This document shows positions 43 to 22,807 of a stretch of DNA of 32,000 bases, piece after piece; the stretch's first letter is position 1, and each line of letters starts with the position of its first letter. The notes beneath the pieces are model-generated. The model had not been told where the DNA came from. It was given only the letters and a program-made list of their open reading frames with translations, and made no database searches. The DNA is from Haloferax volcanii DS2 (GTDB lineage: Archaea > Halobacteriota > Halobacteria > Halobacteriales > Haloferacaceae). The DNA lies in the NCBI RefSeq assembly GCF_000025685.1, contig NC_013964.1, positions 1 to 32,000 of the forward strand, in the 5' to 3' direction. The translations under genes were made by a program, and so were the position numbers.

Positions 43-139
43 GGTGGTGTCTGACGGTCTTACTTGCGCGATACTACTCGTTGATCGTCGAATCCAAAAC
101 CGGGTCCGAAGTGCCGTTCAAACGGCCGTATTTGTCGCT

Positions 140-153
140 GTTACAAACGCGAG
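140..153 (+). repeat. 14-nt repeat GTTACAAACGCGAG, copy 2, followed by TCCACCCC (an inverted G-string), just upstream of the orc1 TATA
   Basis: Exact match to 29-42. Its flank GAGTCCACCCC is the reverse complement of a GGGGTGGA-type G-string, which resembles GAGGGTGGTG next to copy 1. Confidence 0.6.
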
Positions 154-167
154 TCCACCCCTTCACA

Positions 168-174
168 TTTATTA
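168..174 (+). promoter_or_regulatory. TATA-like box (TTTATTA) for a near-leaderless orc1 transcript
   Basis: AT-rich heptamer centred about 30 nt upstream of the ATG at 201. This spacing is typical of haloarchaeal leaderless promoters. Confidence 0.45.
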
Positions 175-200
175 CGGGTGAGTATGAATACCGAACTCAC

Positions 201-1433
201 ATGACATCGGACGAGAGCGAGGGTGGGACCCGCGACCCGCTGTTCCGCTATGACCAACCCATTTTCGCGAACGAGGATATCCTCAAAATCTCTCATCTCC
301 CCGGTCCCGACAAGATTGTCGGCCGCGACGAGCATATGTCGAAAGTCGCACAGGCGCTCAACCCCGCCATCTTCGGACGCGAACCGACCCATCTGTTCAT
401 CTTCGGCAAGACCGGGTCGGGAAAGACGCTCACCGCTCGCCTCGTGAGCGAGCGACTCCAACACGAGGCGGTCCGCGAGGACGTCGACGTCCGCATCGCC
501 GTCATCGACTGCGGCGAACAGCACACCGAGGCCTCGGTCATCAAGACGCTCGCCTCGCAGGTCAACGACCCGTCGAAAAGCGGGATGACGATTCCCGAGC
601 GCGGGCTGTCGACCGGCGACTACTACAACCGCCTGTGGCAGGTGCTCGACACCTGTTCCGACGTGACCATCGTCATCCTCGACGAAATCGATATGCTCCG
701 CGACGACGAGGTGCTCCGAAAGCTCTCGCGCGCGGGCGAGAATCAAAAGATAGTGGACTCGCGCATCGGCATTATCGGCATCTCGAACAAAATCGACTAC
801 CCCGAGGAACTCACGGAGCGCGTCAAATCGAGCTTCGCCCACGACGAACTCGTCTTCCCGTCGTACGACGCGAACCAACTCCGCGAAATCCTCGAAAACC
901 GGAAGGACGCGTTCAAGCCCGGCGTCCTCACCGACGACGTGATTCCCCTCGCGAGCGCGCTCGCCGCCCAGGAACACGGCGACGCCCGGAAGGCCATCGA
1001 CATCCTGCGCAACGCCGGCCGAATCGCGCGAAACGAGAGCGCCGAGACCGTCACCGACGACCACGTGCGGGCGGCCAAGGAGAAAAGCGAGGCCGACCGC
1101 TTCAGCGAACTCCTCGAAGGGACCGCCACGCAGTCGAAGGCCGTCCTCTACTCGCTGGTCCTCCAGACCGGCGGCCGGAAGACCGCCGAGATTACGACGA
1201 ACAAGATTTACCGACAGTATCTCACCGTCGCCGACGACCTCGACATGGACCAACTCTCCGAGCGCCGCGTGCAGGAACTCCTGCAGGAACTCGACTTCCT
1301 CAACGTCATCCAGTCGGAGGTCCGCGGGCGCGGCCGCGGACAGGGCGTCCACGGGACCCACCGCCTGCTCGAGGACCCGGACATCGTCAAGCGAGTGCTC
1401 CTCCGGGACAGCCGTATCTCCACGCTCGAATAG
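201..1433 (+). CDS. orc1: Orc1/Cdc6 replication initiator (AAA+ ATPase with C-terminal winged helix)
   Basis: Walker A GKTGSGKT, Walker B IVILDEID and sensor region GDARKAIDILR. I prefer the ATG at 201 (MTSDESEGG) to the TTG at 81 given by the ORF track, because a TATA-like box lies 30 nt upstream of 201. Confidence 0.93.
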   Translation: MTSDESEGGTRDPLFRYDQPIFANEDILKISHLPGPDKIVGRDEHMSKVAQALNPAIFGREPTHLFIFGKTGSGKTLTARLVSERLQHEAVREDVDVRIAVIDCGEQHTEASVIKTLASQVNDPSKSGMTIPERGLSTGDYYNRLWQVLDTCSDVTIVILDEIDMLRDDEVLRKLSRAGENQKIVDSRIGIIGISNKIDYPEELTERVKSSFAHDELVFPSYDANQLREILENRKDAFKPGVLTDDVIPLASALAAQEHGDARKAIDILRNAGRIARNESAETVTDDHVRAAKEKSEADRFSELLEGTATQSKAVLYSLVLQTGGRKTAEITTNKIYRQYLTVADDLDMDQLSERRVQELLQELDFLNVIQSEVRGRGRGQGVHGTHRLLEDPDIVKRVLLRDSRISTLE

Positions 1434-6419: not shown

Positions 6420-7298
6420 CTACGTCTCTCCGGCCGATTGCCGGATGCGCGCCACGACGTCTTCCCGACTCACGTCGGGGTCGTCGTCGGTCGTGAGTCG
6501 GCCCATCACGAATTCGAGCAGGTCGAGGTCTTGGAGCAGGTCGAGCGCGTCCATGCGTTCGAGGTCGAGCGCCTTGCCGAACTCGTAGACGGTCTTGGCG
6601 TCGTTGGCGGCGTCGGCGAGTTGGTCGATTGTGACGGACTCGGGGAGGCCGATGCCGTCGGCGAGCGCCTCGGGCGACCCGTCGCCGTCCGCCGCGGGTG
6701 CCGGTGGTCGCTCGACGCCCGTCGGGTCGCCGGCGAGCGACGTTTCGTACGACGACGGTTCGTGGACGCCTTGGTCGATCATGTACCTGCGGACCGTCTC
6801 GTCCGTCACGTCCATCTCGAAGGCGTCGGCCATCCGCTCGAACGTCTCGTACCGCGCGTACACGGCTTCGAGGTACGTCGTGTCTTCGAACGCCGGCACG
6901 TTCGGGTTCCGAACGGCTTCGTGCGGTTCGGAATCGGCGTCGTCGTCGGCCGTCTCGGTTGAACTCGTCGTCGGCGCATCGGTCGCGACCGTGACGACGA
7001 CCGCCGGGTCGCCGTCGAGCGAGACGTCCGCGGCGTCGACGGCGACGTGCTCGCGGTCGCTCGGCAGCACGTCGTCGACGCCGAGCGTGAGCCCAATCGA
7101 CCCGTCGGAGTCGAGCGACGCCCCTCGGATTCGAACGGGGATGTCGCCGTCGGCGTCCGACGAGAGCGCGAACTCGACATCCGCGGACGCGCCCGAGTCC
7201 GTGACCGTCACGGACGACTCGCGGACGCTCGCGGCGTCCGTCCGCTCGCACTCTTCGAGGAATTCGCCCAGCCGCCGAAGCGATGTACCCACGCTCAT
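6420..7298 (-). CDS. Acidic hypothetical protein (N-terminal beta-rich region, Thr/Asp linker, two helical C-terminal segments that may be HTH-like)
   Basis: 292-aa ORF with haloarchaeal acidic composition. I recognise no motif. It is divergent from the HTH_10 gene. Confidence 0.6.
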   Translation of the reverse strand: MSVGTSLRRLGEFLEECERTDAASVRESSVTVTDSGASADVEFALSSDADGDIPVRIRGASLDSDGSIGLTLGVDDVLPSDREHVAVDAADVSLDGDPAVVVTVATDAPTTSSTETADDDADSEPHEAVRNPNVPAFEDTTYLEAVYARYETFERMADAFEMDVTDETVRRYMIDQGVHEPSSYETSLAGDPTGVERPPAPAADGDGSPEALADGIGLPESVTIDQLADAANDAKTVYEFGKALDLERMDALDLLQDLDLLEFVMGRLTTDDDPDVSREDVVARIRQSAGET

Positions 7299-7540: not shown

Positions 7541-8191
7541 ATGAGTCTGATAACCGTTGCCGACATCGCGCACGACGACCTCGCGCTGACGCCGACGATT
7601 CAGTCGGAGGCCGCGAGCGAGATAGACGTCATCTCTCAATCCGCGACCGACCCCGAGACCGGCCTGTTTTTCTTCGTCGTGAAGGGCGCGGACGTCTCGG
7701 CGTTCGAAGCGGCGCTGGAGGTCGACCACACGGTCAGCGACTGGCAGCTCGTCTCCGAGCGGGAGGAGTCGGCGGTGTATCGCATCGGACACACGCCCGA
7801 CACGATTCTCCTCTCGCCTATCATCACGGAACTCGGCGGGCTCATGCTCGACGCGTGCAGCAACGACACGGCGGGCTGGCGGGTCCGGCTCCAGCTTTCG
7901 GACCGCGAGGCGCTCTCAGAGGTGTGGGTGTACTGCGAGGCGAACGACATCTCCTTCGAGCTGAACCGGATGTTCCGACAGGACGGCTGGATGAACGGCG
8001 AGCCGAGCAAGCTGACCGACGCCCAGCGCGACGCGCTCGTCGCCGCCTACGAACACGGCTACTTCGAGGAGCCGCGAGAGGCGGCGCTGGACGACCTCTC
8101 GGAAGTACTCGACATCTCGCCGACGGCCGTCAGCGGACGCATCAGGCGGGGGACCGCGGAGCTGGTCGAGTCGATTCTCCTCGACGAGTGA
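7541..8191 (+). CDS. HTH_10 (bacterio-opsin-activator-type) transcription regulator
   Basis: C-terminal LTDAQRDALVAAYEHGYFEEPREAALDDLSEVLDISPTAVSGRIRRG is the canonical HTH_10 signature. Confidence 0.85.
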   Translation: MSLITVADIAHDDLALTPTIQSEAASEIDVISQSATDPETGLFFFVVKGADVSAFEAALEVDHTVSDWQLVSEREESAVYRIGHTPDTILLSPIITELGGLMLDACSNDTAGWRVRLQLSDREALSEVWVYCEANDISFELNRMFRQDGWMNGEPSKLTDAQRDALVAAYEHGYFEEPREAALDDLSEVLDISPTAVSGRIRRGTAELVESILLDE

Positions 8192-8219: not shown

Positions 8220-8594
8220 TCAGACCGCGAGGACGTAGTCGTCCTGCGGTTCGTAGATTTCGCCGCTCATCCGCAGGTCGCGGACGGCGTCGAGCGTTTC
8301 GCCGATGGCGACGCCGTTGTCCGCGAGCGCCGCGGCGAGCCGCCCGAGTTCGACGCCGTCGGGGTGGTCCTCACCGAGTTCGGTGAGCGCCGTTTTCACG
8401 CCGTCGCTCTCGACGTCGACGTCGAACGCGACGCGCTCCCACTCGACGTCGTGGCCGGTGACGTTCGCGTGTCGCCGGTACAGGTCGACGGCGTCGTTCG
8501 GCTCCGTGACGGAGACGTGGAGGTCGCACGCCGGGCAGGTGACGACGCCGGCGTGTGGTTTTTCGGCTAGTTTGGCACTCTCGTCGTCAGGCAT
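8220..8594 (-). CDS. Small acidic protein with a C2H2-like metal site and a probable winged-helix C-terminus; translationally coupled to the Rieske oxygenase
   Basis: 124 aa, with C20-x2-C23-x18-H42-x5-H48. The C-terminal GEIYEPQDDYVLA resembles a wing hairpin. Its ATG (8592-8594) lies inside the last codons of the upstream gene (minus-strand ATGCCTGA, an 8-nt overlap). Confidence 0.7.
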   Translation of the reverse strand: MPDDESAKLAEKPHAGVVTCPACDLHVSVTEPNDAVDLYRRHANVTGHDVEWERVAFDVDVESDGVKTALTELGEDHPDGVELGRLAAALADNGVAIGETLDAVRDLRMSGEIYEPQDDYVLAV

Positions 8595-9729
8595 TGTACG
8601 CGTCCTGCGCGAGGCGGTGCAGTTTGTGGACGGTGTGTTCGTTCGGACCGAGCTGTGCCTGCCCGAGCGCGCCGGACGTGAGCCCCTCGTACTGGCGTTC
8701 GACGAGCTCGAAGTCCTCTTCTTGGAGCTGCCGGCTCGTCTGGACGAACTTCTCTTCTTCTTCGGACAGCTCGGAGTCGCGGAAGTAGTAGTCCGCGATG
8801 AGCTGGAAGCGCCCCTCGTCGATGGGGTCGATGATGTACGTGCCGTAGCCGTCGGCGGTGCCGTACATGTTGACCGTGAAGTTCGGCCAGAAGTAGTAGA
8901 ACTTGGCCTCGTGTTCGGGGTGGATGCGCATCTCGTCGTCGACGTCCTCTTTGTGCTTGTAGTGAAGCACCCAGTGGTAGTCGTTGACTTCGAGTTCGGA
9001 CTCCATGAGTTCGAGTCCCTGCACCCAGTCTTGGTGGTTCGCCTGACAGTGGTCGCACTCCGAGTAGTTCCCGCTGAACGTCTTCCAGTTGCACTCGACT
9101 TCGGAGACGTAGCGCCGGGCGTGTTCGTACTCACCGAGCGGCAGGTCTTCGAGTTCCGTCTTCATCTCCCCGGCCTGTTCGGCAAGCGAGAGGCTCGGTT
9201 CGTCCTCGAAGTTGACGAACACGAGCGGCCCGATGGCGTCGGTGTTGACCTCCATGAGGCCGTTTTCTTCGGGGTCGAGTTCGCTGACGGCGTCGTCGTC
9301 GAGGTCGGGATTCAGACTCGCCTCCTCGAAGCTCTTGGGGGTGCTCTGGAGCGACCCGTCGAGTTCGTACGCCCAGAGGTGGTACGGGCAGGTGATGCGG
9401 CTGAGGCTGCCGGGGTCGGTCATCGGCGTGTCGTCGAGCATCTTCGACCCGCGGTGGGCACAGACGTTGTAGAACGCCCGCACGTCGCCCTCGCCGTCGC
9501 GGGTGACGATTATCTGCTTGTCACCGATGGTTCGCGTGAAGTAGTCGCCCGCGTCCGGGATGTGGGTCTCGTGGCCCGCGTAGACCCAGTACCGACCGAA
9601 CACTTTCTCCTTTTCCATCTCGTGGACCTCCGGGTCGGTGAAGTACCTCGCCGGCAGCGCGTTCGTTTCCGCGGTGATGTCGGCACTTACCGCACCGATC
9701 TCGTCACGATTGTTATTCCACCGTGTCAT
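8587..9729 (-). CDS. Rieske [2Fe-2S] non-heme-iron oxygenase, alpha-subunit type; candidate quaternary-amine (glycine betaine) monooxygenase
   Basis: Rieske motif CAHRG...CPYHLW and mononuclear iron motif DHCQANH (H-x4-H). Start trimmed to MTRWNNNRDE (ATG at 9729). The substrate assignment comes from genomic context only. Confidence 0.88.
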   Translation of the reverse strand: MTRWNNNRDEIGAVSADITAETNALPARYFTDPEVHEMEKEKVFGRYWVYAGHETHIPDAGDYFTRTIGDKQIIVTRDGEGDVRAFYNVCAHRGSKMLDDTPMTDPGSLSRITCPYHLWAYELDGSLQSTPKSFEEASLNPDLDDDAVSELDPEENGLMEVNTDAIGPLVFVNFEDEPSLSLAEQAGEMKTELEDLPLGEYEHARRYVSEVECNWKTFSGNYSECDHCQANHQDWVQGLELMESELEVNDYHWVLHYKHKEDVDDEMRIHPEHEAKFYYFWPNFTVNMYGTADGYGTYIIDPIDEGRFQLIADYYFRDSELSEEEEKFVQTSRQLQEEDFELVERQYEGLTSGALGQAQLGPNEHTVHKLHRLAQDAYNA

Positions 9730-9771
9730 GGGAGGAAGAAACACACATCTGTGGAAAAGGATTCGTCGGAA

Positions 9772-9805
9772 ATAGTGGACCCGTATAAGTGGCGGTGGAT
9801 ATCCG
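9772..9805. promoter_or_regulatory. Bipartite motif ATAGTGGACCCG-N14-GATATCCG in the divergent Rieske / sarcosine-oxidase promoter region
   Basis: Both halves recur at 13472-13495 upstream of the dimethylglycine-oxidase-type gene, with N4 spacing there. Here a TATA-like GTATAAG/CTTATAC (9784-9790) lies between the two halves. Confidence 0.5.
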
Positions 9806-9926
9806 CGAGCGGCCGCCGTTCGGCGGCGAGCGCCGCTCTCGGCGGGCCGAGCGTCGTTCCTCTGAAAAAGGGGCTCCGTGATACAGGTCAAGAGTCAAGG
9901 GGGGACGTTCCGAACCGCCGGGCACA

Positions 9927-11069
9927 ATGAGTGTCCGCGACGACCGATACGATGTCGCCGTCGTCGGGGTCGGCGGGATGGGGAGCGCGACCGCGTACCA
10001 CCTCGCCGACCGCGGCCTCGACGTCGTCGGTCTCGAACGCTACGACATCCCTCACTCGCAGGGGTCGTCCCACGGCATCACCCGCATCATCCGCCGCGCG
10101 TACTACGAACACCCGTCGTACGTCCCGCTCATCGAGCGGGCGTACGACCTCTGGGACGACCTCGCCGACGAGACCGGCCGCGATATCATCCACCGAACCG
10201 GCTCCATCGACGCCGGCCCCGTCGACAACGACGTGTTCGCGGGTTCGAAACGCTCCTGTGAGGAACACGACATCCCGCACGAGGTGCTGACCGGCGCGGA
10301 GGTCAACGAACGATTCCCCGGCTACGAACTCCCCGAGGACTACCGCGCGGTCTATCAGGAAGACGGCGGGTTCGTCGTCCCCGAGCAGTCGATTATCGGC
10401 TATACCGAAGCGGCACAGGCCCGGGGTGCCGAAATCCGCGCCCGCGAACGGGTCGAAGACTGGGCGGAGACGAACGACGGCGGCGTGCGCGTCCGCACCG
10501 ACCGCGGCGTGTACGTCGCGGACGCGCTCGTGCTCGCCGCGGGCGCGTGGAACTACAAACTCGCTGACGCGCTCGACGGCCTCGCGATCCCCGAGCGACA
10601 GGCGCTCGCGTGGTTCCAACCCGAGTCGCCGGCGACGTTCGCGCCCGAGGAGTTCCCCGTCTGGAACCTCAGCGTCCCCGAGGGTCGGTTCTACGGCTTC
10701 CCGGTCCACGACGTGCCGGGGTTCAAACTCGGCAAGTACCACCACCGCGACGAGGAGGTCGACCCCGACGACTTCGACCGCGAGCCGAACCGCGCCGACG
10801 AGGCGATACTCCGCGATGTCACGGAGAAGTACTTCCCGGAGGCCGCGGGGCCGACGATGTCGCTCGCGACGTGTATGTTCACGAACTCGCCGGACGAGCA
10901 CTTCATCCTCGACACGCTGCCGGACCACCCGCAGGTCGCCGTCGGCGCGGGCTTTTCGGGACACGGCTTCAAGTTCGCCAGCGTCATCGGCGAAATCCTC
11001 GCTGACCGCGCCGGCGACGGCGAGAGCGACCTGCCGCTCGATATGTTCTCGCTCGACCGGTTCGAGTGA
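9927..11069 (+). CDS. Monomeric sarcosine oxidase / N-methyl-amino-acid oxidase family flavoenzyme
   Basis: N-terminal VAVVGVGGMGSATAYHLA (GxGxxG); a Cys in TCMFTNSPDEHFILD at the position of the covalent-FAD Cys of MSOX-type enzymes; GFSGHGFKF near the C-terminus. Confidence 0.88.
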   Translation: MSVRDDRYDVAVVGVGGMGSATAYHLADRGLDVVGLERYDIPHSQGSSHGITRIIRRAYYEHPSYVPLIERAYDLWDDLADETGRDIIHRTGSIDAGPVDNDVFAGSKRSCEEHDIPHEVLTGAEVNERFPGYELPEDYRAVYQEDGGFVVPEQSIIGYTEAAQARGAEIRARERVEDWAETNDGGVRVRTDRGVYVADALVLAAGAWNYKLADALDGLAIPERQALAWFQPESPATFAPEEFPVWNLSVPEGRFYGFPVHDVPGFKLGKYHHRDEEVDPDDFDREPNRADEAILRDVTEKYFPEAAGPTMSLATCMFTNSPDEHFILDTLPDHPQVAVGAGFSGHGFKFASVIGEILADRAGDGESDLPLDMFSLDRFE

Positions 11070-11359: not shown

Positions 11360-13114
11360 ATGGCGAATAGCAACGACTCGACCGGTCGGTCGACGAGCGA
11401 GTTACAGGAAGACCTGTTTTATCCCGATATGGAGCGCGAACCCGGTGACAGAAACATCCAGGGGTTGGGGTTCGACATCCATCCCGTCGTCTTCCCGGCC
11501 GCGCTCTTGATAATCGGCGTCTTCGTCGCTGCGACGCTCATTCTCGGTGAGCAGGCGGCGAGCGTCTATTCGGGTATCAGGGGCTTTTTCGAGGGGAACT
11601 TCGGGTGGTTCTTCCTCCTGTCGGTGAACCTCTTTATCGTGGTCTTGGCGTACTTCGCGCTGAGTAAGTACGGAAAGATAACCCTCGGCGGCGTCGAGGC
11701 GGAAAAGGAGTTCAGCGACTTCTCGTGGATGGCGATGCTGTTCAGCGCGGGCATGGGTATCGGGCTCATGTTTTACAGCGTCTCGGAGCCGCTGTACTAC
11801 TTCAGTAACGTCCCCGGCTTCTTCGACGCCGAGGCCGGGTCCGGCGGTGCGGGTATCGCCGCGATGACGCAGACGTTCTTCCATTGGCGGTTCCACCCGT
11901 GGGCCATCTACGGCCTCGTCGGCTTGGGACTCGCGTTCTTTTCGTTCAATCGGGGGCTGCCGCTCACGTTCCGGTCGATTTTCTGGCCGCTCCTCGGCGA
12001 GCGAATCTACGGCTGGCCGGGCCACCTCATCGACCTCGTGGCGGTGTTCGCGACGCTGTTCGGCCTCGCCACGTCGCTCGGCCTCGGGGTCGCACAGATA
12101 AACACCGGGCTGTCGTACATCCTCGGCGGGAGCATGCTCGGCGTCCTGAGCGTTCCGAACAACACCGGGATGCAAATCGCGCTCATCGCCGTGATTACAC
12201 TCATCGCTACCGCCTCTGTCGCGGCCGGCCTCGAAGGCGGTATCCGGCGTCTGAGCACGGTGAACGTCTTTCTGATGTTCGTGCTGTTGACGTTCGTGCT
12301 CGCCGCCGGCGCGACGATGAGCATCTTCGGCGCGTGGGTGCAGGGCCTCGGGAACTACTTCAGCGACTTCCTCTCGCTCGCGTTCTTCACCGGGACGCTC
12401 GGCGACGGCGCGTCCACCGTCAACGCTTGGACGGTGTTCTACTGGGCGTGGTGGATTGCTTGGTCGCCGTTCGTCGGGATGTTCGTCGCGCGCATCTCGA
12501 AGGGGCGGACGGTCCGCGAGTTCGTCTTCGGCGTGTTCGTCCTGCCGTCGCTGTTCTCGACGGTCTGGCTCTCGGCGTTCGGCGGGAGCGCGCTGTTCAA
12601 CTCGCTTCAGGGTAACGGCGCGGTCCTCGCGACCTACAACGAGGCCGGCCAGACGGTCGCCATGTTCGCGCTCCTCGAACAGTTCCCGTTCAGCGCCGTC
12701 TCGGGGCTGCTCGCCGTGACGCTCATCGTCACGTTCTTCGTGACCTCCTCGGACTCGGGGTCGCTCGTCGTCGACCATCTCACGTCGGGCGGCAAGCACA
12801 ACGTGCCGCGGACCCAACGCATCTTCTGGGCGGTCATCGAGGGCCTCGTCGCGTCGCTTCTCCTCTACGGCGGGGGTCTCGGCGCGCTCCAGACGGCGGC
12901 CATCGCGACGGGGTTCCCGTTCGCCGTCGTCCTCGTCATCATGTGCTACACGGTCTATCTCGGCCTCGACAAGGAGTACGAACTCCTGCAATCCGAGGAG
13001 TTCGCCGAGCGAATCGAGGACTTGGCGGACGAGGACATCGACATCGACGTCGGTCGCTCTCAGACGTCAGTCGTGACCAACGTCCGGCAGAACCCCGGCA
13101 CGACGGACGACTGA
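11360..13114 (+). CDS. BCCT-family (betaine/carnitine/choline) transporter
   Basis: Signature WTVFYWAWWIAWSPFVGMFVARISKGRTVREF, about 12 hydrophobic segments and an acidic C-terminal tail. Confidence 0.93.
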   Translation: MANSNDSTGRSTSELQEDLFYPDMEREPGDRNIQGLGFDIHPVVFPAALLIIGVFVAATLILGEQAASVYSGIRGFFEGNFGWFFLLSVNLFIVVLAYFALSKYGKITLGGVEAEKEFSDFSWMAMLFSAGMGIGLMFYSVSEPLYYFSNVPGFFDAEAGSGGAGIAAMTQTFFHWRFHPWAIYGLVGLGLAFFSFNRGLPLTFRSIFWPLLGERIYGWPGHLIDLVAVFATLFGLATSLGLGVAQINTGLSYILGGSMLGVLSVPNNTGMQIALIAVITLIATASVAAGLEGGIRRLSTVNVFLMFVLLTFVLAAGATMSIFGAWVQGLGNYFSDFLSLAFFTGTLGDGASTVNAWTVFYWAWWIAWSPFVGMFVARISKGRTVREFVFGVFVLPSLFSTVWLSAFGGSALFNSLQGNGAVLATYNEAGQTVAMFALLEQFPFSAVSGLLAVTLIVTFFVTSSDSGSLVVDHLTSGGKHNVPRTQRIFWAVIEGLVASLLLYGGGLGALQTAAIATGFPFAVVLVIMCYTVYLGLDKEYELLQSEEFAERIEDLADEDIDIDVGRSQTSVVTNVRQNPGTTDD

Positions 13115-13309: not shown

Positions 13310-13471
13310 CTTTGTCGGCGGGTGACTCCGGTCAGTGCGCTCCTCGTCGGCGCACGGCTTTCGTCGCCGCGCGTGTACTCGTCGTTCTCTGACGCTGATT
13401 CTCGTCGGACCACGCGACGCACCCGTGGTGAGGCCCCTCCCTCGTCACCCCCCGGTATCTATACACCTCAG

Positions 13472-13495
13472 ATAGTGGACCCGGAGAGATATCCG
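13472..13495. promoter_or_regulatory. Bipartite motif ATAGTGGACCCG-N4-GATATCCG upstream of the dimethylglycine-oxidase-type gene
   Basis: Same two half-motifs as 9772-9805. It lies between a TATA-like CTATAC (13459-13464) and the ATG at 13523. Confidence 0.5.
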
Positions 13496-13522
13496 AAGGC
13501 CGCAGTCACTACTGTTTGGTAC

Positions 13523-16036
13523 ATGAACACATGGTCTACGTTTCCCGAACGCGCCGGAACGGTCGTCGTCGGGGCCGGCTGTGTCGGTTGTAGCGCGGCG
13601 TATCACCTCGCCGAGTCGGGTCGCGAAGACGTCGTCGTCCTCGACCGGGGTCCGCTGTTCGAGACCGGGGGGTCGACCTCTCACGCCCCCGGACTCGTGT
13701 TCCAGACGGCCGGGAACAAGCTGATGACGGAGATGGCGTCGTACACGCGCGACCTCTACGACGGGTTCGGTGACTTCCGGACGTGCGGCGGCATCGAAGT
13801 CGCCTACACCGAAGACCGCTGGGACTTCCTCAAACGCAAGCGCGAGTGGGGTCAGTCCTACGGCATCGACGAGGGCCAACTCCTCACGCCCGAGGAGGTC
13901 GAATCGCGCGTCCCGCAGATAAACGCCGACGTCATCTACGGCGGCTACTACGTCCCCTCGGACGGGAAGGCCGACGCCGTCAGCGCCGCCGAGTCGATGG
14001 CGGAGGAGGCGCGCGAGGCGGGCGTCGAGTTCTACGGCCACACCGAGGTCACGGACATCGACACTACCGACGGCAGCGTCGACGCGGTCGAAACCGAACA
14101 CGGCCGCATCGAGGCCGACGAGGTGCTCGTCGCCACGAACATCTGGGGGCCGCTGTTCGGCGAGATGGTCGGCACGGACATCCCGCTCGTCCCCTGCGCG
14201 CACCAGTATCTCGTCTCCGACGAACTGGACGAGCTCGAAGGCGCAGAGCGCGAAATCGAACAGCCGCTCCTCCGGCATCAGGACCACTCGCTGTACTACC
14301 GCCAGCACGGCGAGCGCTACGGCATCGGCTCGTACAACCACGAGTCGCTGCTGGTCGACCCGGCGGATATCTACGGGCCCGACAAGCTCGACGACCTCGG
14401 ACTCGAATACCCGTCGCTCCGGGAGTTCACGGAGGAGCATTTCTACGAGAACACCCACCCGGACCACGACCGGTCGGCGTTCGACGCCGCGAGCGAACTC
14501 GTTCCCGGCTTCGAGGACTGCGAGTGGACCTCCGCCATCAACGGCATGTTCTCGTTCACGCCCGACGGCATGCCCATCCTCGGGCCGGACGAGGACACCG
14601 AGGGTCTCTGGTGGGCGCTCGCCGTCTGGGTCACGCAGTCCGGCGGCGCGGGCGACATCGTCGCCAGCTGGATGGAAGACGGGACGCCGCGGCTCGACGG
14701 CTCCCGCGTCAACGCCTCCGGCGCGCACGTCTCCCGGTTCCAGTCGCACACGGGCAGCCGAGAGTACACCTACGGGCGCGGCGCGCAGCAGTACCGCGAG
14801 GTGTACCAACTCGTCCACCCGCGCGAACAGCCGGACGGACAGCGCGCGCTCCGTCGGAGCCCGTTTTACGACCGGCAGGCCGACCTCGGCGCGGAGTTCT
14901 ACGACAGCGACGGCTGGGAGGTCCCGCAGTGGTACGAGTCCAACGAGACGCTCCTCGAAACGTACGACGTGCCGGACCGCCCCGACTGGCTCTCGCAGAA
15001 CTGGTCGAAGGTCCAGGGCGCGGAACACCAGCATCTCCGCGAGAAGGTCGGCATGGTCGACATGACGACGTTCACGCCCATCGAAGTGTCGGGCCCGGGC
15101 GCGCTTGAGTTCCTGCAAGGGCTCCTGACGAACGACATGGATGTCACGCCGGGCCGGATGCGCTACTCCGCGATGCTCAACGAGGACGGCGGCGTACTCG
15201 CCGATCTGACCGTCGCCCGCCTCGGCGACGAGCGGTTCGTGCTGTTCACCGGGGGCGGAAGCTCGGCGACGCTCCACTCGCGGTGGGTCACAGAGCACGC
15301 GCCCGACGACGGCTCCGTCGACGTGACCGCACACGTCTCCAGTCGAACCGGTATCGGCGTCTTCGGCCCCGACTCCCGGAAGGTGCTTTCGGACCTCGTC
15401 GAGGCCGACCTCTCGAACGACGAGTTCCCGTTCTACTCCGCACAGGAGACCTACCTCGGTAGCATCCCCGTGACGATGCTCCGACTCTCGTACGCCGGCG
15501 AACTCGGCTGGGAAATCTACGCCCCGACCGAGTACGGAAGCCAGCTCTGGGACGCGATTCGCGAGGCCGGCGAGGAGTACGACATCGCGCCCGTCGGCTG
15601 GGCCGCGCTCGACTCGACGAGCATGGAGAAGGGATTCCGCCTGTGGGGGACGGACCTCACGCCCGAACACAACCCGTACGAGGCCGGCATCGGCTTCGCG
15701 GCCGACCTCGACACCGACTTCGTCGGGAAGGCGGCGCTCGTGGCGGACAAAAACGACGACAGCCCGAGCGACCGCATCGTCCCGATAACGCTCGACGAGG
15801 AGGAAGCCGTCGTCGACGCGGGCCACCCGGTGTTCGTCGACGACGAGGTCGTCGGCTACTGCTGTCGGGCCGACTACGGCTACACCATCGACGCCGGCAT
15901 CGCGTACGCCTACCTCCCCGAGGAGTACGCCAGCTCGGGGCAGGACGTCGAAATCCGGTACGAGGGTGACGCTCACCCCGCGACGGTCCGGTCCGGGCCG
16001 CTTTTCGATCCCGACCGCGACAAGATGATTCGGTAA
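13523..16036 (+). CDS. Dimethylglycine oxidase/dehydrogenase-family enzyme (N-terminal FAD oxidoreductase fused to a GcvT-like folate-binding aminomethyltransferase domain)
   Basis: VVVGAGCVGCSAAYHLA (GxGxxG), GGSTSHAPG, and a C-terminal GcvT-type region (SYAGELGWEIY). At 837 aa it matches the size class of bacterial DMGO. Start trimmed to MNTWSTFPE. Confidence 0.9.
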   Translation: MNTWSTFPERAGTVVVGAGCVGCSAAYHLAESGREDVVVLDRGPLFETGGSTSHAPGLVFQTAGNKLMTEMASYTRDLYDGFGDFRTCGGIEVAYTEDRWDFLKRKREWGQSYGIDEGQLLTPEEVESRVPQINADVIYGGYYVPSDGKADAVSAAESMAEEAREAGVEFYGHTEVTDIDTTDGSVDAVETEHGRIEADEVLVATNIWGPLFGEMVGTDIPLVPCAHQYLVSDELDELEGAEREIEQPLLRHQDHSLYYRQHGERYGIGSYNHESLLVDPADIYGPDKLDDLGLEYPSLREFTEEHFYENTHPDHDRSAFDAASELVPGFEDCEWTSAINGMFSFTPDGMPILGPDEDTEGLWWALAVWVTQSGGAGDIVASWMEDGTPRLDGSRVNASGAHVSRFQSHTGSREYTYGRGAQQYREVYQLVHPREQPDGQRALRRSPFYDRQADLGAEFYDSDGWEVPQWYESNETLLETYDVPDRPDWLSQNWSKVQGAEHQHLREKVGMVDMTTFTPIEVSGPGALEFLQGLLTNDMDVTPGRMRYSAMLNEDGGVLADLTVARLGDERFVLFTGGGSSATLHSRWVTEHAPDDGSVDVTAHVSSRTGIGVFGPDSRKVLSDLVEADLSNDEFPFYSAQETYLGSIPVTMLRLSYAGELGWEIYAPTEYGSQLWDAIREAGEEYDIAPVGWAALDSTSMEKGFRLWGTDLTPEHNPYEAGIGFAADLDTDFVGKAALVADKNDDSPSDRIVPITLDEEEAVVDAGHPVFVDDEVVGYCCRADYGYTIDAGIAYAYLPEEYASSGQDVEIRYEGDAHPATVRSGPLFDPDRDKMIR

Positions 16037-16989: not shown

Positions 16990-17400
16990 TTCGTCGTCGA
17001 CGCCGCGCTGTTCGAGGACGCGCTCGACGATTTCTTCGGGGTGTTCGGTCGCCACGGCGAGCGCGGCGTTGTGGAGTTCGCTCTTCGTGACGCCCTTGAG
17101 GCCGTGGTCGCGGGTCAGTTCGCGCTCCACGTCGTAGGTGATGATGTCGTCGAACTCGTCGGCGACCGCTTCGAGCACGTACAGCGCCTTGTGGACGGTC
17201 TCGTCGAACTCGAAGGCGGGGCGCTCGCGGGGGTCGACGGGTTCGGCGGACGCGGATTCCGTCGCTGACTCGTCGTCCGATTCGACCGCGTCGTCGGTGC
17301 CGGCGTCTTCGTCCGCCGGTTCGGGTTCCGGCTCTGGCCCGGAGTCGGTCTCGCCGCTTCCCATCGCGGCGTCGAGGTCGCCGAAGGGGTCTTCGCTCAT
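16978..17400 (-). CDS. Acidic protein coupled to ParA (candidate partition adaptor / centromere-binding partner)
   Basis: 140 aa, with a disordered acidic N-terminus (PEPEPEPADEDAGTDD) and a folded C-terminal region of about 80 aa. Its start overlaps the parA stop as ATGA (17397-17400). Confidence 0.7.
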   Translation of the reverse strand: MSEDPFGDLDAAMGSGETDSGPEPEPEPADEDAGTDDAVESDDESATESASAEPVDPRERPAFEFDETVHKALYVLEAVADEFDDIITYDVERELTRDHGLKGVTKSELHNAALAVATEHPEEIVERVLEQRGVDDEDSE

Positions 17401-18260
17401 CGGGCCACCTCGCCTTCTTCGACGATTTGCGCGAGTTCGTCGTAGCACGCCAACTGGTCGCAGGTGCTGTCGTAGTCCCGCAGCGGCATGTGCTCCCGAA
17501 TCGACGCGTCGATGGCCGACCGATGCCGAATCCCCGGCTTCGGCAGGTCGCCGTCCCACTCGCCGTCGTCGATGGCCTCGAACACGTCCGGGTCGGTGTA
17601 CGCGAAGTTCGGGAGCTTCGAGGCGATGTTCGGCTTCGAGACGAGCGCCTCCACGAGCCGTCTCGTCGGGCGGTCGTGGTCGATTCGGTCCCGCAGGTCG
17701 GTCGGCACGACCGCGAGGATTTCGAGGTCGAAGTGTTCGCGCGCGGGCGTGATAAGTCGCTTGACGGTCTTTTCGAGTCCCGAGAGCGCCCCCGATTCGG
17801 GGCGCATCGGCAACACGAGGTTCTGCGTGGCGTACAGCGCGTTGTCGTTGAGTTTCCCGCGCGCCGCGGGGCAGTCCACGACGACGTAGTCGTAGTCGTC
17901 CCCGAGAAGCGGGTCGATGACGCGCTGTTTGAGCCGCGCCGACCCCATCATCACGCCGCCGAGGTCCGACTCGACCTGTTCGATGCGGTCGTTCGAGGGG
18001 AGGAGGTCGATTTCGAACCCGGTCTCCAAGATGAGCTCTCGCGGCTCCAACTCGGCGTCGTCGAGGAGCACGTCTCCGAGATGTGCCTCCGAGTAGAACT
18101 CTTCTCCGAACCCGAGACCCGTCGTGGTGTGTCCGTTCGGGTCGAGGTCGACGAGCAGCACGTCGCTTCCCCGGTGTGCGAGTTCGCGGGCGAGGTTGAT
18201 GGAGGTCGTCGACTTGCCGATACCGCCTTTGAGGAGACAGACGCTGACTGCACGTGACAT
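17397..18260 (-). CDS. parA: ParA/Soj-family partition ATPase
   Basis: Deviant Walker A KGGIGKST and LLVDLDPNGH. Start trimmed to MSRAVSVCLLKGG (ATG at 18260). Confidence 0.9.
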   Translation of the reverse strand: MSRAVSVCLLKGGIGKSTTSINLARELAHRGSDVLLVDLDPNGHTTTGLGFGEEFYSEAHLGDVLLDDAELEPRELILETGFEIDLLPSNDRIEQVESDLGGVMMGSARLKQRVIDPLLGDDYDYVVVDCPAARGKLNDNALYATQNLVLPMRPESGALSGLEKTVKRLITPAREHFDLEILAVVPTDLRDRIDHDRPTRRLVEALVSKPNIASKLPNFAYTDPDVFEAIDDGEWDGDLPKPGIRHRSAIDASIREHMPLRDYDSTCDQLACYDELAQIVEEGEVAR

Positions 18261-18346
18261 GATGGGGATATCCGTACTATCGAGATTCTCGGCGTAGTTG
18301 AAATAATTATGGTTACTCCAGCTCTTTGAACAACTCACACACTCCA

Positions 18347-18364
18347 AATAATCTGAATAATCTA
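18347..18364. repeat. Tandem AATAATCT(g)AATAATCT(a) in the AT-rich parA / permease divergent region
   Basis: Two adjacent copies with a 9-nt period, read directly from the sequence. Confidence 0.4.
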
Positions 18365-18437
18365 AACTCAGCGAGTTGATCGACTCGGTTCGCTCTCGCC
18401 TCGACTGGCGGCCCGAATTGTCGCCGGCAGTAGCTAT

Positions 18438-19892
18438 TTGGGCCCGTTGTGTGCAGGTAAATTCGTGACAGATTGGTTGCCCGACCGAGGGCTGCGCGCC
18501 CCCGAACTCTCGTCGCAGACGGTGACCCTCGCGGTCGCCGCCGCCTTGCTCCTCGCGGTCGTCGGGCTCCACCCCGTCTCCGTCCTTCCTGTCCGGTCGC
18601 AGTACGCGCTTTCGGTTTTCGTCGTCGCGCTCCTGCTCTGGTTGACGAAGCCGGTTCCGTACGCGATTTCGAGTCTGGCCTGCGTCTCCCTGTTGTACGC
18701 CCTCGGCGTCGTTGACACCTTCGAGGCCGCGGTGAGCGGCTTCACCTCCTCGCTCGTGTACTTCCTCCTCGTGTTGTTACTCCTCGGCAACGCGGTCCGG
18801 TCGGTGGGGTTGGACACCCAGTTAGCGAACCGACTGCTGTCCCCGGACAGCACCCCCCGCGGGGCGTTTCGTTCCATCGCGCGGAACGTCCTCGTGCTGG
18901 CGCTGTTCATGCCGTCGGCGATGGCCCGCGCGGTCGCGTTCATCCCCATCGTCGAGGAGGTGACAGAGGAGCTCGACCTCCCGTCGGGAAGCGGGTTCGA
19001 GCGCGCGACGTTCCTCCTCTTGGGTCACATCAACCCCATCGCGTCGATGGCGCTCATGACCGGCGGCGGGATGGCGCTCGTCACCTCGGGCATCCTCGCG
19101 ACGAGCGTCCGTCCGCTCTCGTGGGTCGAGTGGGCTGTCTTGATGGTCCCACCCACGGTGGCGCTCTACGTACTGGCCGCCGCGGCTGCCGGTCTCCTCA
19201 ACACCGTCGACGCCGACTCGACTGTCGACCCCGGCACGTCGGGGATTGCGGATGCGTCCGCCGACGGCGAGTTGACCCGCGAACAGGGACTCGTCGCGGC
19301 GGTGATGGCCGGGACCGTCCTCGCGTGGGTCGTTGGGTCGTTCGCCGGACTTCCCGAGATTCTCCCGGCGGTCGCCGCGGTCTCCGTCCTCGCGCTTCCG
19401 GGAGTCGACGTTATCGACGCCGACGACGTCAAGGGACTCAGTTGGGGCGTCCTCTTTCTCATCGGCGCGACGCTGTCGATTCTGGACGCCCTGAAAGCGA
19501 CCCAAACTATCGCGCTCGTCGTCGACCTCCTCGCGCGGTTCGTCCCGTTCGAGGCGTTCAGTCACTGGCAACTCGTCGGACTGCTCCTCGGGTTCGCGGT
19601 CACCGTTCGCGTGCTGTTTTCGACCGGGTCGGCCGCTATCGTGGTGATTCTCCCCATCGTGCTGCGATTCGCGGAGACGTTCGGCGTGACGCGGCTCTAC
19701 CTCGGACTCGCGGTCCTCCTCGTGGTGGGGTCGACGACGATTCTCCCGTTCAACACGACTGCCGTCCTCGTCTCGCTGGACCGCGGACCGCTGACGAATC
19801 GGGACGTGACGCTGTTCGGGTTCGTGACGATGGGCCTGTCGCTCGTCGTCGTGACCCTCTCGTGGCTCTTTTATTGGCCGCTCGTCGCCTGA
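18438..19892 (+). CDS. Anion/dicarboxylate permease of the ArsB/NhaD-DASS (SLC13-like) superfamily
   Basis: A polytopic membrane protein of about 480 aa with internal two-fold repeat character. The start is uncertain: TTG at 18438 per the ORF track, or in-frame GTG at 18465 or 18519. There is no early ATG. Confidence 0.7.
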   Translation: MGPLCAGKFVTDWLPDRGLRAPELSSQTVTLAVAAALLLAVVGLHPVSVLPVRSQYALSVFVVALLLWLTKPVPYAISSLACVSLLYALGVVDTFEAAVSGFTSSLVYFLLVLLLLGNAVRSVGLDTQLANRLLSPDSTPRGAFRSIARNVLVLALFMPSAMARAVAFIPIVEEVTEELDLPSGSGFERATFLLLGHINPIASMALMTGGGMALVTSGILATSVRPLSWVEWAVLMVPPTVALYVLAAAAAGLLNTVDADSTVDPGTSGIADASADGELTREQGLVAAVMAGTVLAWVVGSFAGLPEILPAVAAVSVLALPGVDVIDADDVKGLSWGVLFLIGATLSILDALKATQTIALVVDLLARFVPFEAFSHWQLVGLLLGFAVTVRVLFSTGSAAIVVILPIVLRFAETFGVTRLYLGLAVLLVVGSTTILPFNTTAVLVSLDRGPLTNRDVTLFGFVTMGLSLVVVTLSWLFYWPLVA

Positions 19893-20050: not shown

Positions 20051-20704
20051 ATGTCGAAGATAGACCGCCGTCTGCGAGACGCCCGGAGCATCGAGTTGGA
20101 CAACGCGTTTTACGTCGAGGACGGGACGTGGATCGAGTCGCTCACCATCGCCTCGAACGCCCCCTTCGACGTGGAGTCCCTCCTCGCCGACATCTCGGGC
20201 GTGACCGTCTTCTACGACGAGGAGATTCCGACCGCCTCGACCGACGTGCAGATACGTCGAGTGACGATTCTCGCCAACGAGTCGTACCCGTTCATCCTCG
20301 GACTGGTTCTCAGACAGGAGACGATTCCGAACCGCATCGTCCTCCAAGACGGCGTCTTCGAGGTCGTCGCCACCGCCCAGGACTGGGACCACTTCAGGGA
20401 ACTCGCCGACGAGATTCAGGAGACGCTCGGGGAGTTCGAACTCCGCTCCGTGACGCAGGACGAAGCCCCGGGTGAACCGCTCGACAGCGGCCGATTAAAG
20501 GAGGTGTTAATCTCTAAGCTGACCGACGACCAACTCGCGGTTCTGGAGACGGCATTCAACCACGGCTACTTCCACATTCCGCGGGAGACCTCTGAGACCG
20601 AACTCGCCGAGGAACTGGGTATCGCTCAGTCCACGCTGAGCGAACGACTCCGGACCGCGGAGCGAAATCTGCTCGAACTCATCTACGGTCCGCGACAGGA
20701 GTAG
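20051..20704 (+). CDS. HTH_10 (bacterio-opsin-activator-type) transcription regulator, paralogous in architecture to 7541-8191
   Basis: C-terminal LTDDQLAVLETAFNHGYFHIPRETSETELAEELGIAQSTLSERLRTAE. Confidence 0.85.
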   Translation: MSKIDRRLRDARSIELDNAFYVEDGTWIESLTIASNAPFDVESLLADISGVTVFYDEEIPTASTDVQIRRVTILANESYPFILGLVLRQETIPNRIVLQDGVFEVVATAQDWDHFRELADEIQETLGEFELRSVTQDEAPGEPLDSGRLKEVLISKLTDDQLAVLETAFNHGYFHIPRETSETELAEELGIAQSTLSERLRTAERNLLELIYGPRQE

Positions 20705-22756: not shown

Positions 22757-22807
22757 GGTGACACGCATGTCGAACACTACTCACTCGTGGCGTTGGGGGG
22801 TCCGACC

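What the first reader, a model, noticed from the sequence alone, without database searches (positions are those of the whole stretch)
8220..9729. Rieske oxygenase without a reductase partner, translationally coupled to a 124-aa C2H2-like / winged-helix protein
Characterised quaternary-amine Rieske monooxygenases (GbcA/GbcB, BmoA/BmoB, CntA/CntB) are two-component systems with a dedicated flavin/[2Fe-2S] reductase encoded alongside. I can find no such gene anywhere in this 32-kb window. Instead, the oxygenase stop codon lies inside the start region of a small acidic ORF (minus-strand ATGCCTGA, an 8-nt overlap), which implies coupled translation and possibly linked stoichiometry.

The small protein has only two Cys, arranged C-x2-C-x18-H-x5-H like a zinc finger, so it cannot be a ferredoxin on its own. 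It ends in a wing-like GEIYEPQDDYVLA segment. It could be a substrate-responsive DNA-binding regulator made together with the enzyme, or a new accessory/adaptor subunit that docks a housekeeping ferredoxin. Either would be an undescribed arrangement for this enzyme class.
Basis: partly seen in the sequence, partly recalled or inferred. Interest (0 to 1): 0.62.

Follow-up and report, generated by a model that had tools for sequence, protein, structure and literature searches.

The report
Rieske oxygenase with zinc-finger partner
In salt-loving archaea, a betaine-degrading iron-sulfur oxygenase that has no reductase gene of its own is always followed by one small zinc-finger/winged-helix protein of unknown function, a real, unstudied pairing that can be tested directly in the model organism Haloferax volcanii.

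Summary
Window 8587-9729(-) encodes a CntA/GbcA-like Rieske oxygenase. Window 8220-8594(-) encodes a 124-aa protein whose ATG overlaps the oxygenase stop (ATGCCTGA). The genome matches Haloferax volcanii DS2 in size, and the window is the start of pHV3. The small protein is almost certainly HVO_B0008, namesake of Pfam PF25214/PF25215.

- **Structure:** AlphaFold gives a confident two-domain model (pLDDT 91): a C2H2-like finger plus a winged helix of the archaeal MCM C-terminal type.
- **Linkage:** in 395 haloarchaeal genomes, 61 carry the small gene. All 61 have it directly downstream of this Rieske gene on the same strand (gap -8 to +76 nt).
- **No reductase:** none lies in the window or is conserved within ±10 kb in 25 loci. 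The GbcB/CntB-type domain is missing from the whole genome and from 40 of the 61 pair genomes.
- **Not redox:** the metal ligands are lost in 22% of family members.

Its function is unresolved. I favour a non-redox protein partner of the oxygenase (about 0.42) over an operon-embedded regulator (about 0.35). A single-chain AlphaFold docking test gave no support for binding. I found no literature on either gene. Within this scan, only first-reader notes on this same window mention the island.

The parts
8587..9729 (-). Rieske non-haem-iron oxygenase alpha subunit, 380 aa (P0002). Rieske ligands are C90/H92/C114/H117. Iron ligands are H227/H232/D339, with bridging E224.
   Evidence: Pfam Rieske + Ring_hydroxyl_A. 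Best solved relative is CntA 6y8j, 9.5e-39, with the ligands aligned. The ligands are invariant in 64 homologues.
8220..8594 (-). 124-aa small protein (P0001), almost certainly HVO_B0008.
   Evidence: Pfam PF25214 + PF25215. AF2 model: pLDDT 90.8, pTM 0.82. 129 family clusters, all haloarchaeal.
8587..8594 (-). ATGCCTGA start/stop overlap between the oxygenase and the small ORF.
   Evidence: The same overlap occurs in 6 other Haloferax loci. Other genera have gaps of -4 to +76 nt.
8433..8546 (-). N-terminal finger domain (residues 17-54): beta-beta-alpha-beta fold, C20/C23/H42/H48, invariant Y39-R40-R41.
8226..8399 (-). C-terminal winged helix (residues 66-123) of the archaeal MCM C-terminal type. 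R108, G111, E115 and P116 are invariant; D119 is nearly so (98%).
   Evidence: In one search PF21120 MCM_WH_arc hits relatives and one family member (P0040); P0001 itself did not hit it.
9730..9926 (.). Divergent promoter region between the Rieske and sarcosine-oxidase-like genes. A TATA-like TTATA lies at 9784-9788 (minus strand), followed by an element conserved across genera (about 9755-9782).
   Evidence: The transcription start is inferred, not shown.
7541..8191 (+). HTH_10/BAT-type regulator, convergent with the small gene.
   Evidence: Pfam. It is adjacent in 20 of 29 neighbourhoods. In five genomes without an adjacent copy, four have the best homologue 20-32 kb away and one (G154) has it 74-212 kb away or more.
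9927..11069 (+). Monomeric sarcosine oxidase / N-methyltryptophan-oxidase-like flavoprotein (context).
11360..13114 (+). BCCT transporter (HVO_B0012 'BetT' in PMC6267482) (context).
13322..16036 (+). Dimethylglycine dehydrogenase/oxidase-like protein (DAO + GCV_T) (context).
6420..7298 (-). Acidic 292-aa protein of unknown function. Relatives are annotated DUF8073 and sit next to the Rieske gene in other genera.

Best explanation
The pair is a conserved two-gene unit of the haloarchaeal glycine-betaine catabolic island. The first gene encodes a CntA/GbcA-like Rieske monooxygenase, inferred to catalyse betaine -> dimethylglycine + formaldehyde. It has no dedicated reductase and most likely takes electrons from a housekeeping [2Fe-2S] ferredoxin. 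The second gene encodes HVO_B0008, a non-redox protein with a zinc-stabilised finger and an MCM-type winged helix, made from the same transcript. I propose that HVO_B0008 acts at the protein level on the oxygenase. It could be an accessory subunit that stabilises or assembles the oligomer, including mixed oligomers with the Rieske-less paralogue where that exists. It could instead help dock the electron donor, using the invariant basic Y-R-R face of the finger. Shown here: gene reality, fold, strict linkage, absence of a reductase, dispensability of the metal site. Inferred: substrate, ferredoxin as donor, and physical binding to the oxygenase.
For: - **Linkage:** 61 of 395 haloarchaeal genomes have the small gene, and the same 61 have the Rieske orthologue. 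All 64 copies lie on the same contig and strand as a Rieske hit, with the starts about 1.2-1.5 kb apart (coordinates). The gap was measured in 40 loci including the window's own and ranged from -8 to +76 nt.
- **Single context:** there are no orphan copies. A scan of 1.84 billion representatives finds only a tiny core family (13 hits at E<=1e-30, 48 at E<=1e-10).
- **Fixed position:** other island genes shuffle. The HTH_10 regulator is convergent, on the same strand, 20-32 kb away, or replaced by an IclR-type gene. The small gene stays attached to the 3' end of the Rieske gene.
- **Persists across divergence:** it still follows a divergent (48-53% identical) Rieske gene. In 9 of 29 sampled loci it sits between that gene and a Rieske-less catalytic paralogue. 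This recalls the NdmCDE complex, which needs a structural subunit.
- **Winged-helix type:** it is the archaeal MCM C-terminal type. Among the best fold matches are the protein-binding Rpa2/RPA32C winged helices. The recognition helix (E99, D102, E106) and the wing tip (D118, D119) are conserved acidic, which argues against canonical winged-helix DNA binding.
- **No reductase:** none in the window. No NAD_binding_1 domain in the genome or in 40 of the 61 pair genomes, and never near the pair in the other 21. No ferredoxin or reductase among the conserved neighbours in 25 loci. Seven Fer2-domain genes lie elsewhere in the genome.
Against: - AF2 of a natural read-through fusion (Halorussus, 25-aa linker, 9 paired rows) gave pTM 0.67 with both parts folded. 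That is what two undocked bodies give. The test is weak: it used a monomer, not the alpha3 trimer, and no PAE was returned.
- The small protein evolves fast (36-50% identity against 72-80% for the Rieske protein). Within Haloferax its dN/dS is 0.45-1.4 against 0.06-0.08.
- Distance covariation with the Rieske protein does not exceed background.
- Relatives with 2-3 fingers plus the same winged helix lie in mobile-element or viral contexts. This hints at a nucleic-acid-related ancestry.
- Four genomes have divergent Rieske paralogues with neither a small partner nor a reductase. So the partner is not generally required for reductase-less operation.
Confidence: 0.42

Rival explanations
1. HVO_B0008 is an operon-embedded transcription regulator or co-regulator of the betaine island. 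It would bind DNA through the basic finger helix (R40, R41, often R43/R44, R54), possibly together with the neighbouring Bat-type HTH_10 regulator, as the small zinc-finger protein Brz does with Bat in Halobacterium (from memory).
For: - A zinc finger plus winged helix is, a priori, a nucleic-acid-binding architecture.
- Relatives carry 2-3 tandem fingers and lie in transposon or viral contexts.
- Evolution is fast and constraint is relaxed.
- The AF2 fusion test showed no docking.
- An HTH_10/BAT regulator is adjacent in most loci.
- A conserved operator-like element lies downstream of the TATA box in all Rieske promoters examined.
- Regulators at the end of catabolic operons are common in bacteria (general knowledge).
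Against: - The winged-helix recognition helix and wing tip are conserved acidic.
- The winged helix is of the MCM/RPA32 type, which acts mainly as a protein-interaction module.
- All four metal ligands of the finger are lost in 17 of 77 members, yet the family persists.
- The family occurs in only one genomic context and never moves away from the 3' end of the Rieske gene, unlike the true regulator genes of the island.
- The island already has a dedicated regulator.
Confidence: 0.35
2. HVO_B0008 has another non-catalytic role tied to the oxygenase: a maturation or chaperone factor for Fe-S or iron loading in high salt, or an RNA-binding factor acting on the operon's own mRNA.
For: The linkage is strict and the genes are co-transcribed. 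The finger has a basic face. AF2 gave no stable docking, which fits a transient interaction. The 5' region of the Rieske transcript is conserved.
Against: It shows no similarity to any known Fe-S or metallochaperone family. There is no positive evidence for RNA binding.
Confidence: 0.13
3. The small protein is itself the missing electron carrier, with a 2Cys/2His (Rieske-like) iron-sulfur site.
For: Two Cys plus two His is formally the ligand set of a Rieske centre, and no reductase or ferredoxin is encoded nearby.
Against: 17 of 77 family members have lost at least three of the four ligands, although their Rieske partner stays about 75% identical. The spacing and the AF2 fold are those of a C2H2-type zinc knuckle plus helix. 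It shows no similarity to any Fe-S family.
Confidence: 0.03
4. The system is an ordinary GbcAB/CntAB-type two-component enzyme whose reductase gene simply lies outside the window.
For: None found.
Against: The complete genome has no NAD_binding_1 domain. Forty of the 61 pair genomes have none. In the other 21 it lies at least 275 kb away or on another contig. None is conserved within ±10 kb of 25 orthologous loci.
Confidence: 0.03

Closest known systems
GbcA/GbcB (Pseudomonas), BmoA/BmoB (Chromohalobacter) and CntA/CntB (Acinetobacter) quaternary-amine Rieske monooxygenases
   Same: The alpha subunit has a Rieske CxH...CxxH centre, a 2-His-1-Asp iron site and a bridging Glu, all alignable to CntA (6y8j, 9.5e-39). 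It sits among betaine-catabolic genes (BCCT, dimethylglycine and sarcosine oxidases, SHMT).
   Different: There is no FNR-type flavin/[2Fe-2S] reductase beside it or anywhere in the genome. It scores far below the NCBIfam GbcA cut-off (132 against 670 bits). It is followed by a zinc-finger/winged-helix gene that those systems lack.
NdmCDE caffeine N7-demethylase complex (Pseudomonas putida CBB5; from memory)
   Same: It is a Rieske-family N-demethylase that uses a Rieske-less catalytic subunit and a non-catalytic structural subunit. Here, 17 of the 61 pair genomes carry a Rieske-less 336-aa paralogue near the small gene.
   Different: NdmE has a GST fold and NdmD is a reductase. Here the extra protein is a finger plus winged helix and no reductase is present. 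No complex has been shown.
C-terminal winged helix of archaeal MCM (Pfam PF21120) and the Rpa2/RPA32C winged helices
   Same: The fold is the same, as is the signature L-R-x-x-G-x-[LIV]-[YW]-E-P with an acidic helix 3. The best PDB profile hit is an MCM C-terminus (8x7t, E = 0.09). Fold hits include 9f26, 9f27 and 1dpu.
   Different: It is a stand-alone 124-aa protein fused to a finger domain and is encoded in a catabolic operon, not in a replication protein.
Pfam HVO_B0008_N / HVO_B0008_C (PF25214 / PF25215)
   Same: This protein is a full-length member and very probably the name-giving sequence.
   Different: Pfam defines only the domains. Neither the names returned here nor the literature search gave a function or the linkage to the Rieske gene; the Pfam entry text itself was not available.
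Brz / Bat of the Halobacterium salinarum bop regulon (from memory)
   Same: It is a small zinc-finger protein encoded next to a Bat-type HTH_10 regulator.
   Different: No sequence relationship was tested. Brz is about 60 aa and has no winged helix. The analogy is only a lead for the regulator rival.

Membership tests
HVO_B0008 family (Pfam PF25214 + PF25215) | Both domain models hit above their gathering scores over their full length. | tested here: met
   84.5 bits (cut-off 27) and 91.2 bits (cut-off 27.4), profile positions 1-38/38 and 1-51/51.
Quaternary-amine Rieske monooxygenase, oxygenase component (CntA/GbcA/BmoA type) | Rieske [2Fe-2S] ligands CxH...CxxH. | tested here: met
   C90-A-H92 and C114-P-Y-H117 align to CntA and are invariant in 64 homologues.
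Quaternary-amine Rieske monooxygenase, oxygenase component (CntA/GbcA/BmoA type) | Mononuclear iron 2-His-1-carboxylate plus bridging Glu. | tested here: met
   E224, H227, H232 and D339 align with CntA E205, H208, H213 and D323 (the CntA numbering is from memory, with the chain offset checked).
GbcA equivalog (NCBIfam NF058607) | Score above the curated cut-off. | tested here: not met
   131.8 bits against 670, with only the N-terminal half matched.
Two-component GbcAB/BmoAB/CntAB system | Cognate FNR-type reductase (FAD_binding_6 / NAD_binding_1 / Fer2) encoded alongside. | tested here: not met
   None in the window. No PF00175 in the genome. Absent from 40 of 61 pair genomes and never near the pair.
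Two-component GbcAB/BmoAB/CntAB system | N-demethylation of glycine betaine (or C-N cleavage of carnitine) shown biochemically. | not testable with these tools
   The substrate is inferred only from the conserved neighbours.
Classical C2H2 zinc finger | C-x2-4-C ... H-x3-5-H on a beta-beta-alpha fold that binds Zn. | tested here: inconclusive
   The spacing is C-x2-C-x18-H-x5-H (the classical linker is 12). AF2 gives beta-beta-alpha plus a third strand. CCHH is present in 60 of 77 members and lost in 17. The metal was not testable.
Winged-helix DNA-binding transcription factor | Winged-helix fold. | tested here: met
   AF2 shows H66-74, H83-91, H97-110 and a beta-hairpin at 113-123. Foldseek finds winged-helix hits only, all weak (E >= 0.085).
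Winged-helix DNA-binding transcription factor | Basic or polar recognition helix and wing able to contact DNA. | tested here: not met
   Helix 3 positions 99, 102 and 106 are 93%, 71% and 89% acidic. The wing tip D118/D119 is 83% and 98% acidic.
Winged-helix DNA-binding transcription factor | Specific DNA binding. | not testable with these tools
   Needs EMSA or ChIP-seq.
Ferredoxin / iron-sulfur electron carrier | A conserved full set of cluster ligands. | tested here: not met
   There are only 2 Cys, and at least 3 of the 4 candidate ligands are lost in 22% of members.

The most novel reading that the evidence does not exclude
HVO_B0008 defines a new, non-redox component class for Rieske oxygenases. 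It would be a finger/winged-helix adaptor that binds the alpha3 oxygenase, or a mixed alpha/Rieske-less-alpha' oligomer, and lets it draw electrons from the housekeeping haloarchaeal ferredoxin. That would replace the dedicated reductase of the bacterial GbcAB/CntAB systems.
Probability: 0.2. Interest if true: 0.75.

Novelty: new variant of a known kind. Interest (0 to 1): 0.55.

Why it matters
Glycine betaine is a major organic solute in hypersaline habitats, yet no haloarchaeal route for degrading it has been worked out. I found only two synteny-level remarks in the literature (PMC3102087, PMC6267482).

The bacterial betaine and carnitine Rieske monooxygenases are textbook two-component enzymes. 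This is a widespread archaeal version, present in 61 of 395 sampled species, that has no reductase and instead has an invariably linked protein of unknown function. Working out what HVO_B0008 does would do two things. It would assign a function to a Pfam family that currently has only a locus-tag name. It would also show either a new kind of oxygenase accessory subunit or a new type of small archaeal regulator.

The organism is genetically tractable, so deletion, pull-down and growth tests are straightforward.

Tried and rejected
- **Mixed alignments:** mixing Rieske-only, small-only and fusion rows in one MAFFT alignment (A4, A6) scattered the small proteins over the Rieske columns. I discarded these and used nine natural in-frame read-through fusions plus Rieske rows instead (A7).
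- **Distance covariation:** a mirror-tree analysis of small versus Rieske, HTH_10, MSOX and DMGDH in 14 loci showed no excess for any biologically meaningful pair. The high small-ThrDH value looks like saturation. The test was uninformative.
- **Operator test:** I asked whether the conserved promoter element occurs only where an HTH_10 gene is adjacent. The test cannot discriminate: four of five 'HTH_10-less' loci have the best homologue 20-32 kb away on the same replicon, and all five genomes carry 13-23 HTH_10 paralogues.
- **Small-less paralogues:** I checked whether Rieske paralogues without the small gene carry a reductase instead. They do not. Their neighbours are BCCT, MFS, CoA-ligase, hydratase and CoA-transferase genes.
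- **Solved structures:** sequence and profile searches of the PDB for the small protein found nothing significant. Foldseek against PDB and BFVD gave only weak winged-helix or virus-protein hits.
- **Literature:** searches for HVO_B0005 to HVO_B0012 and for haloarchaeal betaine/Rieske terms found only remarks on the BCCT and dimethylglycine-oxidase genes.
- **Net charge:** charge per residue does not separate regulators from enzymes in this halophile.
Full report
**What is there**

On the minus strand, the 380-aa ORF at 8587-9729 ends ...Y-N-A-stop. The ATG of a 124-aa ORF (8220-8594) lies 8 nt inside it, giving ATGCCTGA.

The large protein carries Pfam Rieske and Ring_hydroxyl_A domains. Its best solved relative is the carnitine monooxygenase oxygenase subunit CntA (6y8j, 9.5e-39, residues 25-360). 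The Rieske ligands (C90, H92, C114, H117), the iron triad (H227, H232, D339) and the bridging Glu (E224) all align to CntA. They are invariant or nearly so in 64 homologues. The NCBIfam GbcA model matches only the N-terminal half and falls far below its cut-off (132 against 670 bits). So this is a separate subfamily of the quaternary-amine Rieske oxygenases.

The neighbours form a betaine -> glycine -> pyruvate island:
- a BCCT transporter
- a monomeric sarcosine-oxidase-like flavoprotein
- a dimethylglycine-dehydrogenase-like protein
- SHMT
- a PLP-dependent dehydratase
- an HTH_10/BAT regulator

**Identity of the genome**

The assembly has 5 contigs totalling 4,012,900 bp, and the window is bases 1-32000 of contig 4. 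The small protein's cluster has a longest contig of 437,906 bp. From memory, these are the sizes of Haloferax volcanii DS2 and its replicon pHV3. The small protein is a full-length, top-scoring match to Pfam HVO_B0008_N and HVO_B0008_C, so it is almost certainly HVO_B0008 itself. The BCCT gene is HVO_B0012 in PMC6267482.

**The small protein**

An AlphaFold2 model built on 77 family sequences is confident (pLDDT 90.8, pTM 0.82). It has three parts:
- a disordered tail (residues 1-13)
- a beta-beta-alpha-beta finger (16-55) carrying C20, C23, H42 and H48
- a winged helix (66-123)

Foldseek against the PDB finds only winged-helix matches, all weak (E >= 0.085). They include the protein-binding Rpa2/RPA32C domains as well as DNA-binding DtxR-type and Z-alpha domains.

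Pfam and PDB profile searches place the winged helix with the C-terminal winged helix of archaeal MCM. Weak PF25215 hits in the genome survey fall in MCM-sized ORFs.

A profile search of 1.84 billion representative proteins returns 145 hits. There is a small core family, followed by proteins of about 170-210 aa with two or three tandem copies of the same finger plus the same winged helix. One such relative lies among transposase, SHOCT and hypothetical genes. The best viral fold hits are uncharacterised proteins of Haloarcula tailed viruses.

Within the family:
- R40, R41, R108, G111, E115 and P116 are invariant.
- N33, Y39, D49 and D119 are nearly invariant.
- The four candidate metal ligands are intact in 60 of 77 members. 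At least three of the four are lost in the other 17, a subgroup in which every named source is Haloarcula or Halomicroarcula.

The metal site is therefore structural and dispensable. This excludes an essential iron-sulfur role.

The winged helix has a conserved acidic recognition helix (positions 99, 102, 106) and an acidic wing tip (118, 119). The only conserved basic face is on the finger helix (R40, R41, often R43/R44, plus R54).

**Linkage**

I surveyed 395 haloarchaeal species genomes.
- 61 genomes have a strong PF25215 hit, 64 copies in all.
- The same 61 have a Rieske homologue of P0002.
- By coordinates, every copy lies on the same contig and strand just downstream of that Rieske gene.
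- In the 39 other loci examined in detail, plus the window's own, the distance from the Rieske stop to the small-gene start is -8, -4, -1 or +2 to +76 nt.
- Four further genomes have only divergent Rieske homologues (41-55% identity depending on the search) and no small gene. Their neighbours are transport and CoA-metabolism genes, again without any reductase.

The rest of the island is conserved but fluid. The HTH_10 regulator is adjacent in 20 of 29 neighbourhoods. It is replaced by an IclR-type gene in Halalkalicoccus. In four of five genomes checked that lack an adjacent copy, the best homologue lies 20-32 kb away on the same replicon. Only the small gene never moves.

The small protein evolves much faster than the enzyme. 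Identity is 36-50% against 72-80%, and dN/dS within Haloferax is 0.45-1.4 against 0.06-0.08.

**The missing reductase**

- No protein of the window has a ferredoxin, FAD_binding_6/NAD_binding_1 or related domain.
- The whole genome has no NAD_binding_1 domain, although the control genomes show the search works.
- Of the 61 pair genomes, 40 have none. In the other 21 it lies on another contig or at least 275 kb away.
- Clustering all ORFs within ±10 kb of 25 diverse loci gave these conserved neighbours: SHMT, an ABC ATPase with a CBS domain, an HbpS-like protein, GNAT, EamA, aldo-keto reductase, MTHFR and an AstE/AspA-like protein. None is an electron-transfer protein.
- The genome has seven Fer2-domain genes elsewhere.

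A housekeeping ferredoxin is therefore the obvious electron donor. This is an inference.

**Test for physical association**

Where the two ORFs happen to be in frame, reading the single stop codon as Gly gives a natural single-chain fusion. I aligned them with 55 Rieske homologues (A7) and folded the Halorussus fusion, which has a 25-residue linker.

Both parts folded: the small domain reached pLDDT about 90 and the linker stayed below 35. pTM was 0.67, roughly what two unconnected bodies of 380 and 120 residues would give (my own rough estimate, about 0.68-0.72). So the test gives no support for a docked complex. It is weak, however. It used a monomer rather than the alpha3 trimer, it had only nine paired rows, and no PAE was returned.

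**Reading**

Two explanations remain. I put a protein-level partner of the oxygenase slightly ahead (about 0.42) for these reasons:
- its position at the 3' end of the Rieske gene is absolutely fixed
- the family occurs in a single genomic context
- the winged helix is of the MCM/RPA32 type, with an acidic helix 3 and wing
- the gene persists beside a strongly divergent Rieske gene
- it lies between that gene and a Rieske-less catalytic paralogue in several genera (see below)

An operon-embedded regulator or co-regulator comes close behind (about 0.35). It is favoured by the finger-plus-winged-helix architecture, the mobile-element and viral relatives, fast evolution, the negative docking test, and the presence of a conserved operator-like element. 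A maturation or RNA-binding role (about 0.13) cannot be excluded. An iron-sulfur carrier role and a reductase lying outside the window are both effectively refuted.

**Novelty**

No paper in the searchable library mentions HVO_B0008 or its neighbours apart from the BCCT gene. The only statements about haloarchaeal betaine catabolism are synteny remarks. Every source name returned for family members is 'hypothetical', 'uncharacterized' or a domain-derived label. I therefore class the enzyme as a new variant of a known kind of system, paired with an uncharacterised partner family.

**Seen in passing**

- A 336-aa paralogue has lost all four Rieske ligands but keeps the catalytic iron site. It occurs in 17 of the 61 pair genomes and often lies directly after the small gene.
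- The region between the TATA-like box and the Rieske start codon is conserved across genera.
- A DUF8073-like protein is a further conserved member of the island whose function is unknown.

Noticed in passing
L073:3087-4097 (Haloprofundus salilacus); also L004, L013, L014, L016-L019, L025, L028: A 336-aa paralogue of the oxygenase is 61-64% identical overall and 74-80% identical in the catalytic part. It has lost all four Rieske ligands (C90->S, H92->R, residues ~108-151 deleted) but keeps E224/H227/H232/D339. It occurs in 17 of the 61 pair genomes and often lies directly after the small gene. In Natronococcus-like genomes the only full-length partner is a 48-53% divergent Rieske gene. This suggests a mixed oligomer, as with NdmC.
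   Followed up: partly
window 9755-9790 (minus strand) and the equivalent upstream regions of L038-L061, L073, L075: A TATA-like ACTTATA lies about 57 nt upstream of the Rieske ATG. It is followed by an element conserved across genera (for example ACTAyCTGCGAtCAAC...TTTT). The Natrialbaceae plasmid-type loci carry a GTTCA-N10-TGAAC palindrome instead.
   Followed up: partly
window 6420-7298 (-): This acidic 292-aa protein has no significant Pfam hit here. Its 32-39% identical relatives are annotated DUF8073_N/M/C and sit immediately beside the Rieske gene in Natrialbaceae, Haloprofundus and Natronococcus loci. It is a second conserved unknown of the island.
   Followed up: partly
L091:6451-7086 (G142 contig 11) and proteins P0137, P0138, P0140, P0146: Relatives have two or three tandem HVO_B0008_N/DUF7542-type fingers followed by the same MCM-type winged helix. 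The one genomic copy examined lies among transposase, SHOCT and hypothetical genes. The best BFVD fold hits are proteins of Haloarcula hispanica tailed viruses 1 and 2.
   Followed up: partly
L092-L095 (G291, G106, G336, G311): Divergent Rieske homologues (41-54% identity) without the small gene sit beside BCCT or MFS transporters and CoA-ligase, enoyl-CoA hydratase, CoA-transferase, MaoC and PrpD genes. They may be oxygenases for a different quaternary amine (carnitine-like?). They too lack any reductase gene.
   Followed up: partly
window 81-1433 (+) and 17397-18572 (-): An Orc1/Cdc6 gene lies at the very start of the contig and a ParA-type ATPase lies further on. Both fit the window being the origin-proximal part of a megaplasmid (pHV3).
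   Followed up: no
window 20051-20704 (+): A second HTH_10/BAT regulator lies upstream of a dipeptide/oligopeptide-type ABC transporter operon (20822-26834).
   Followed up: no
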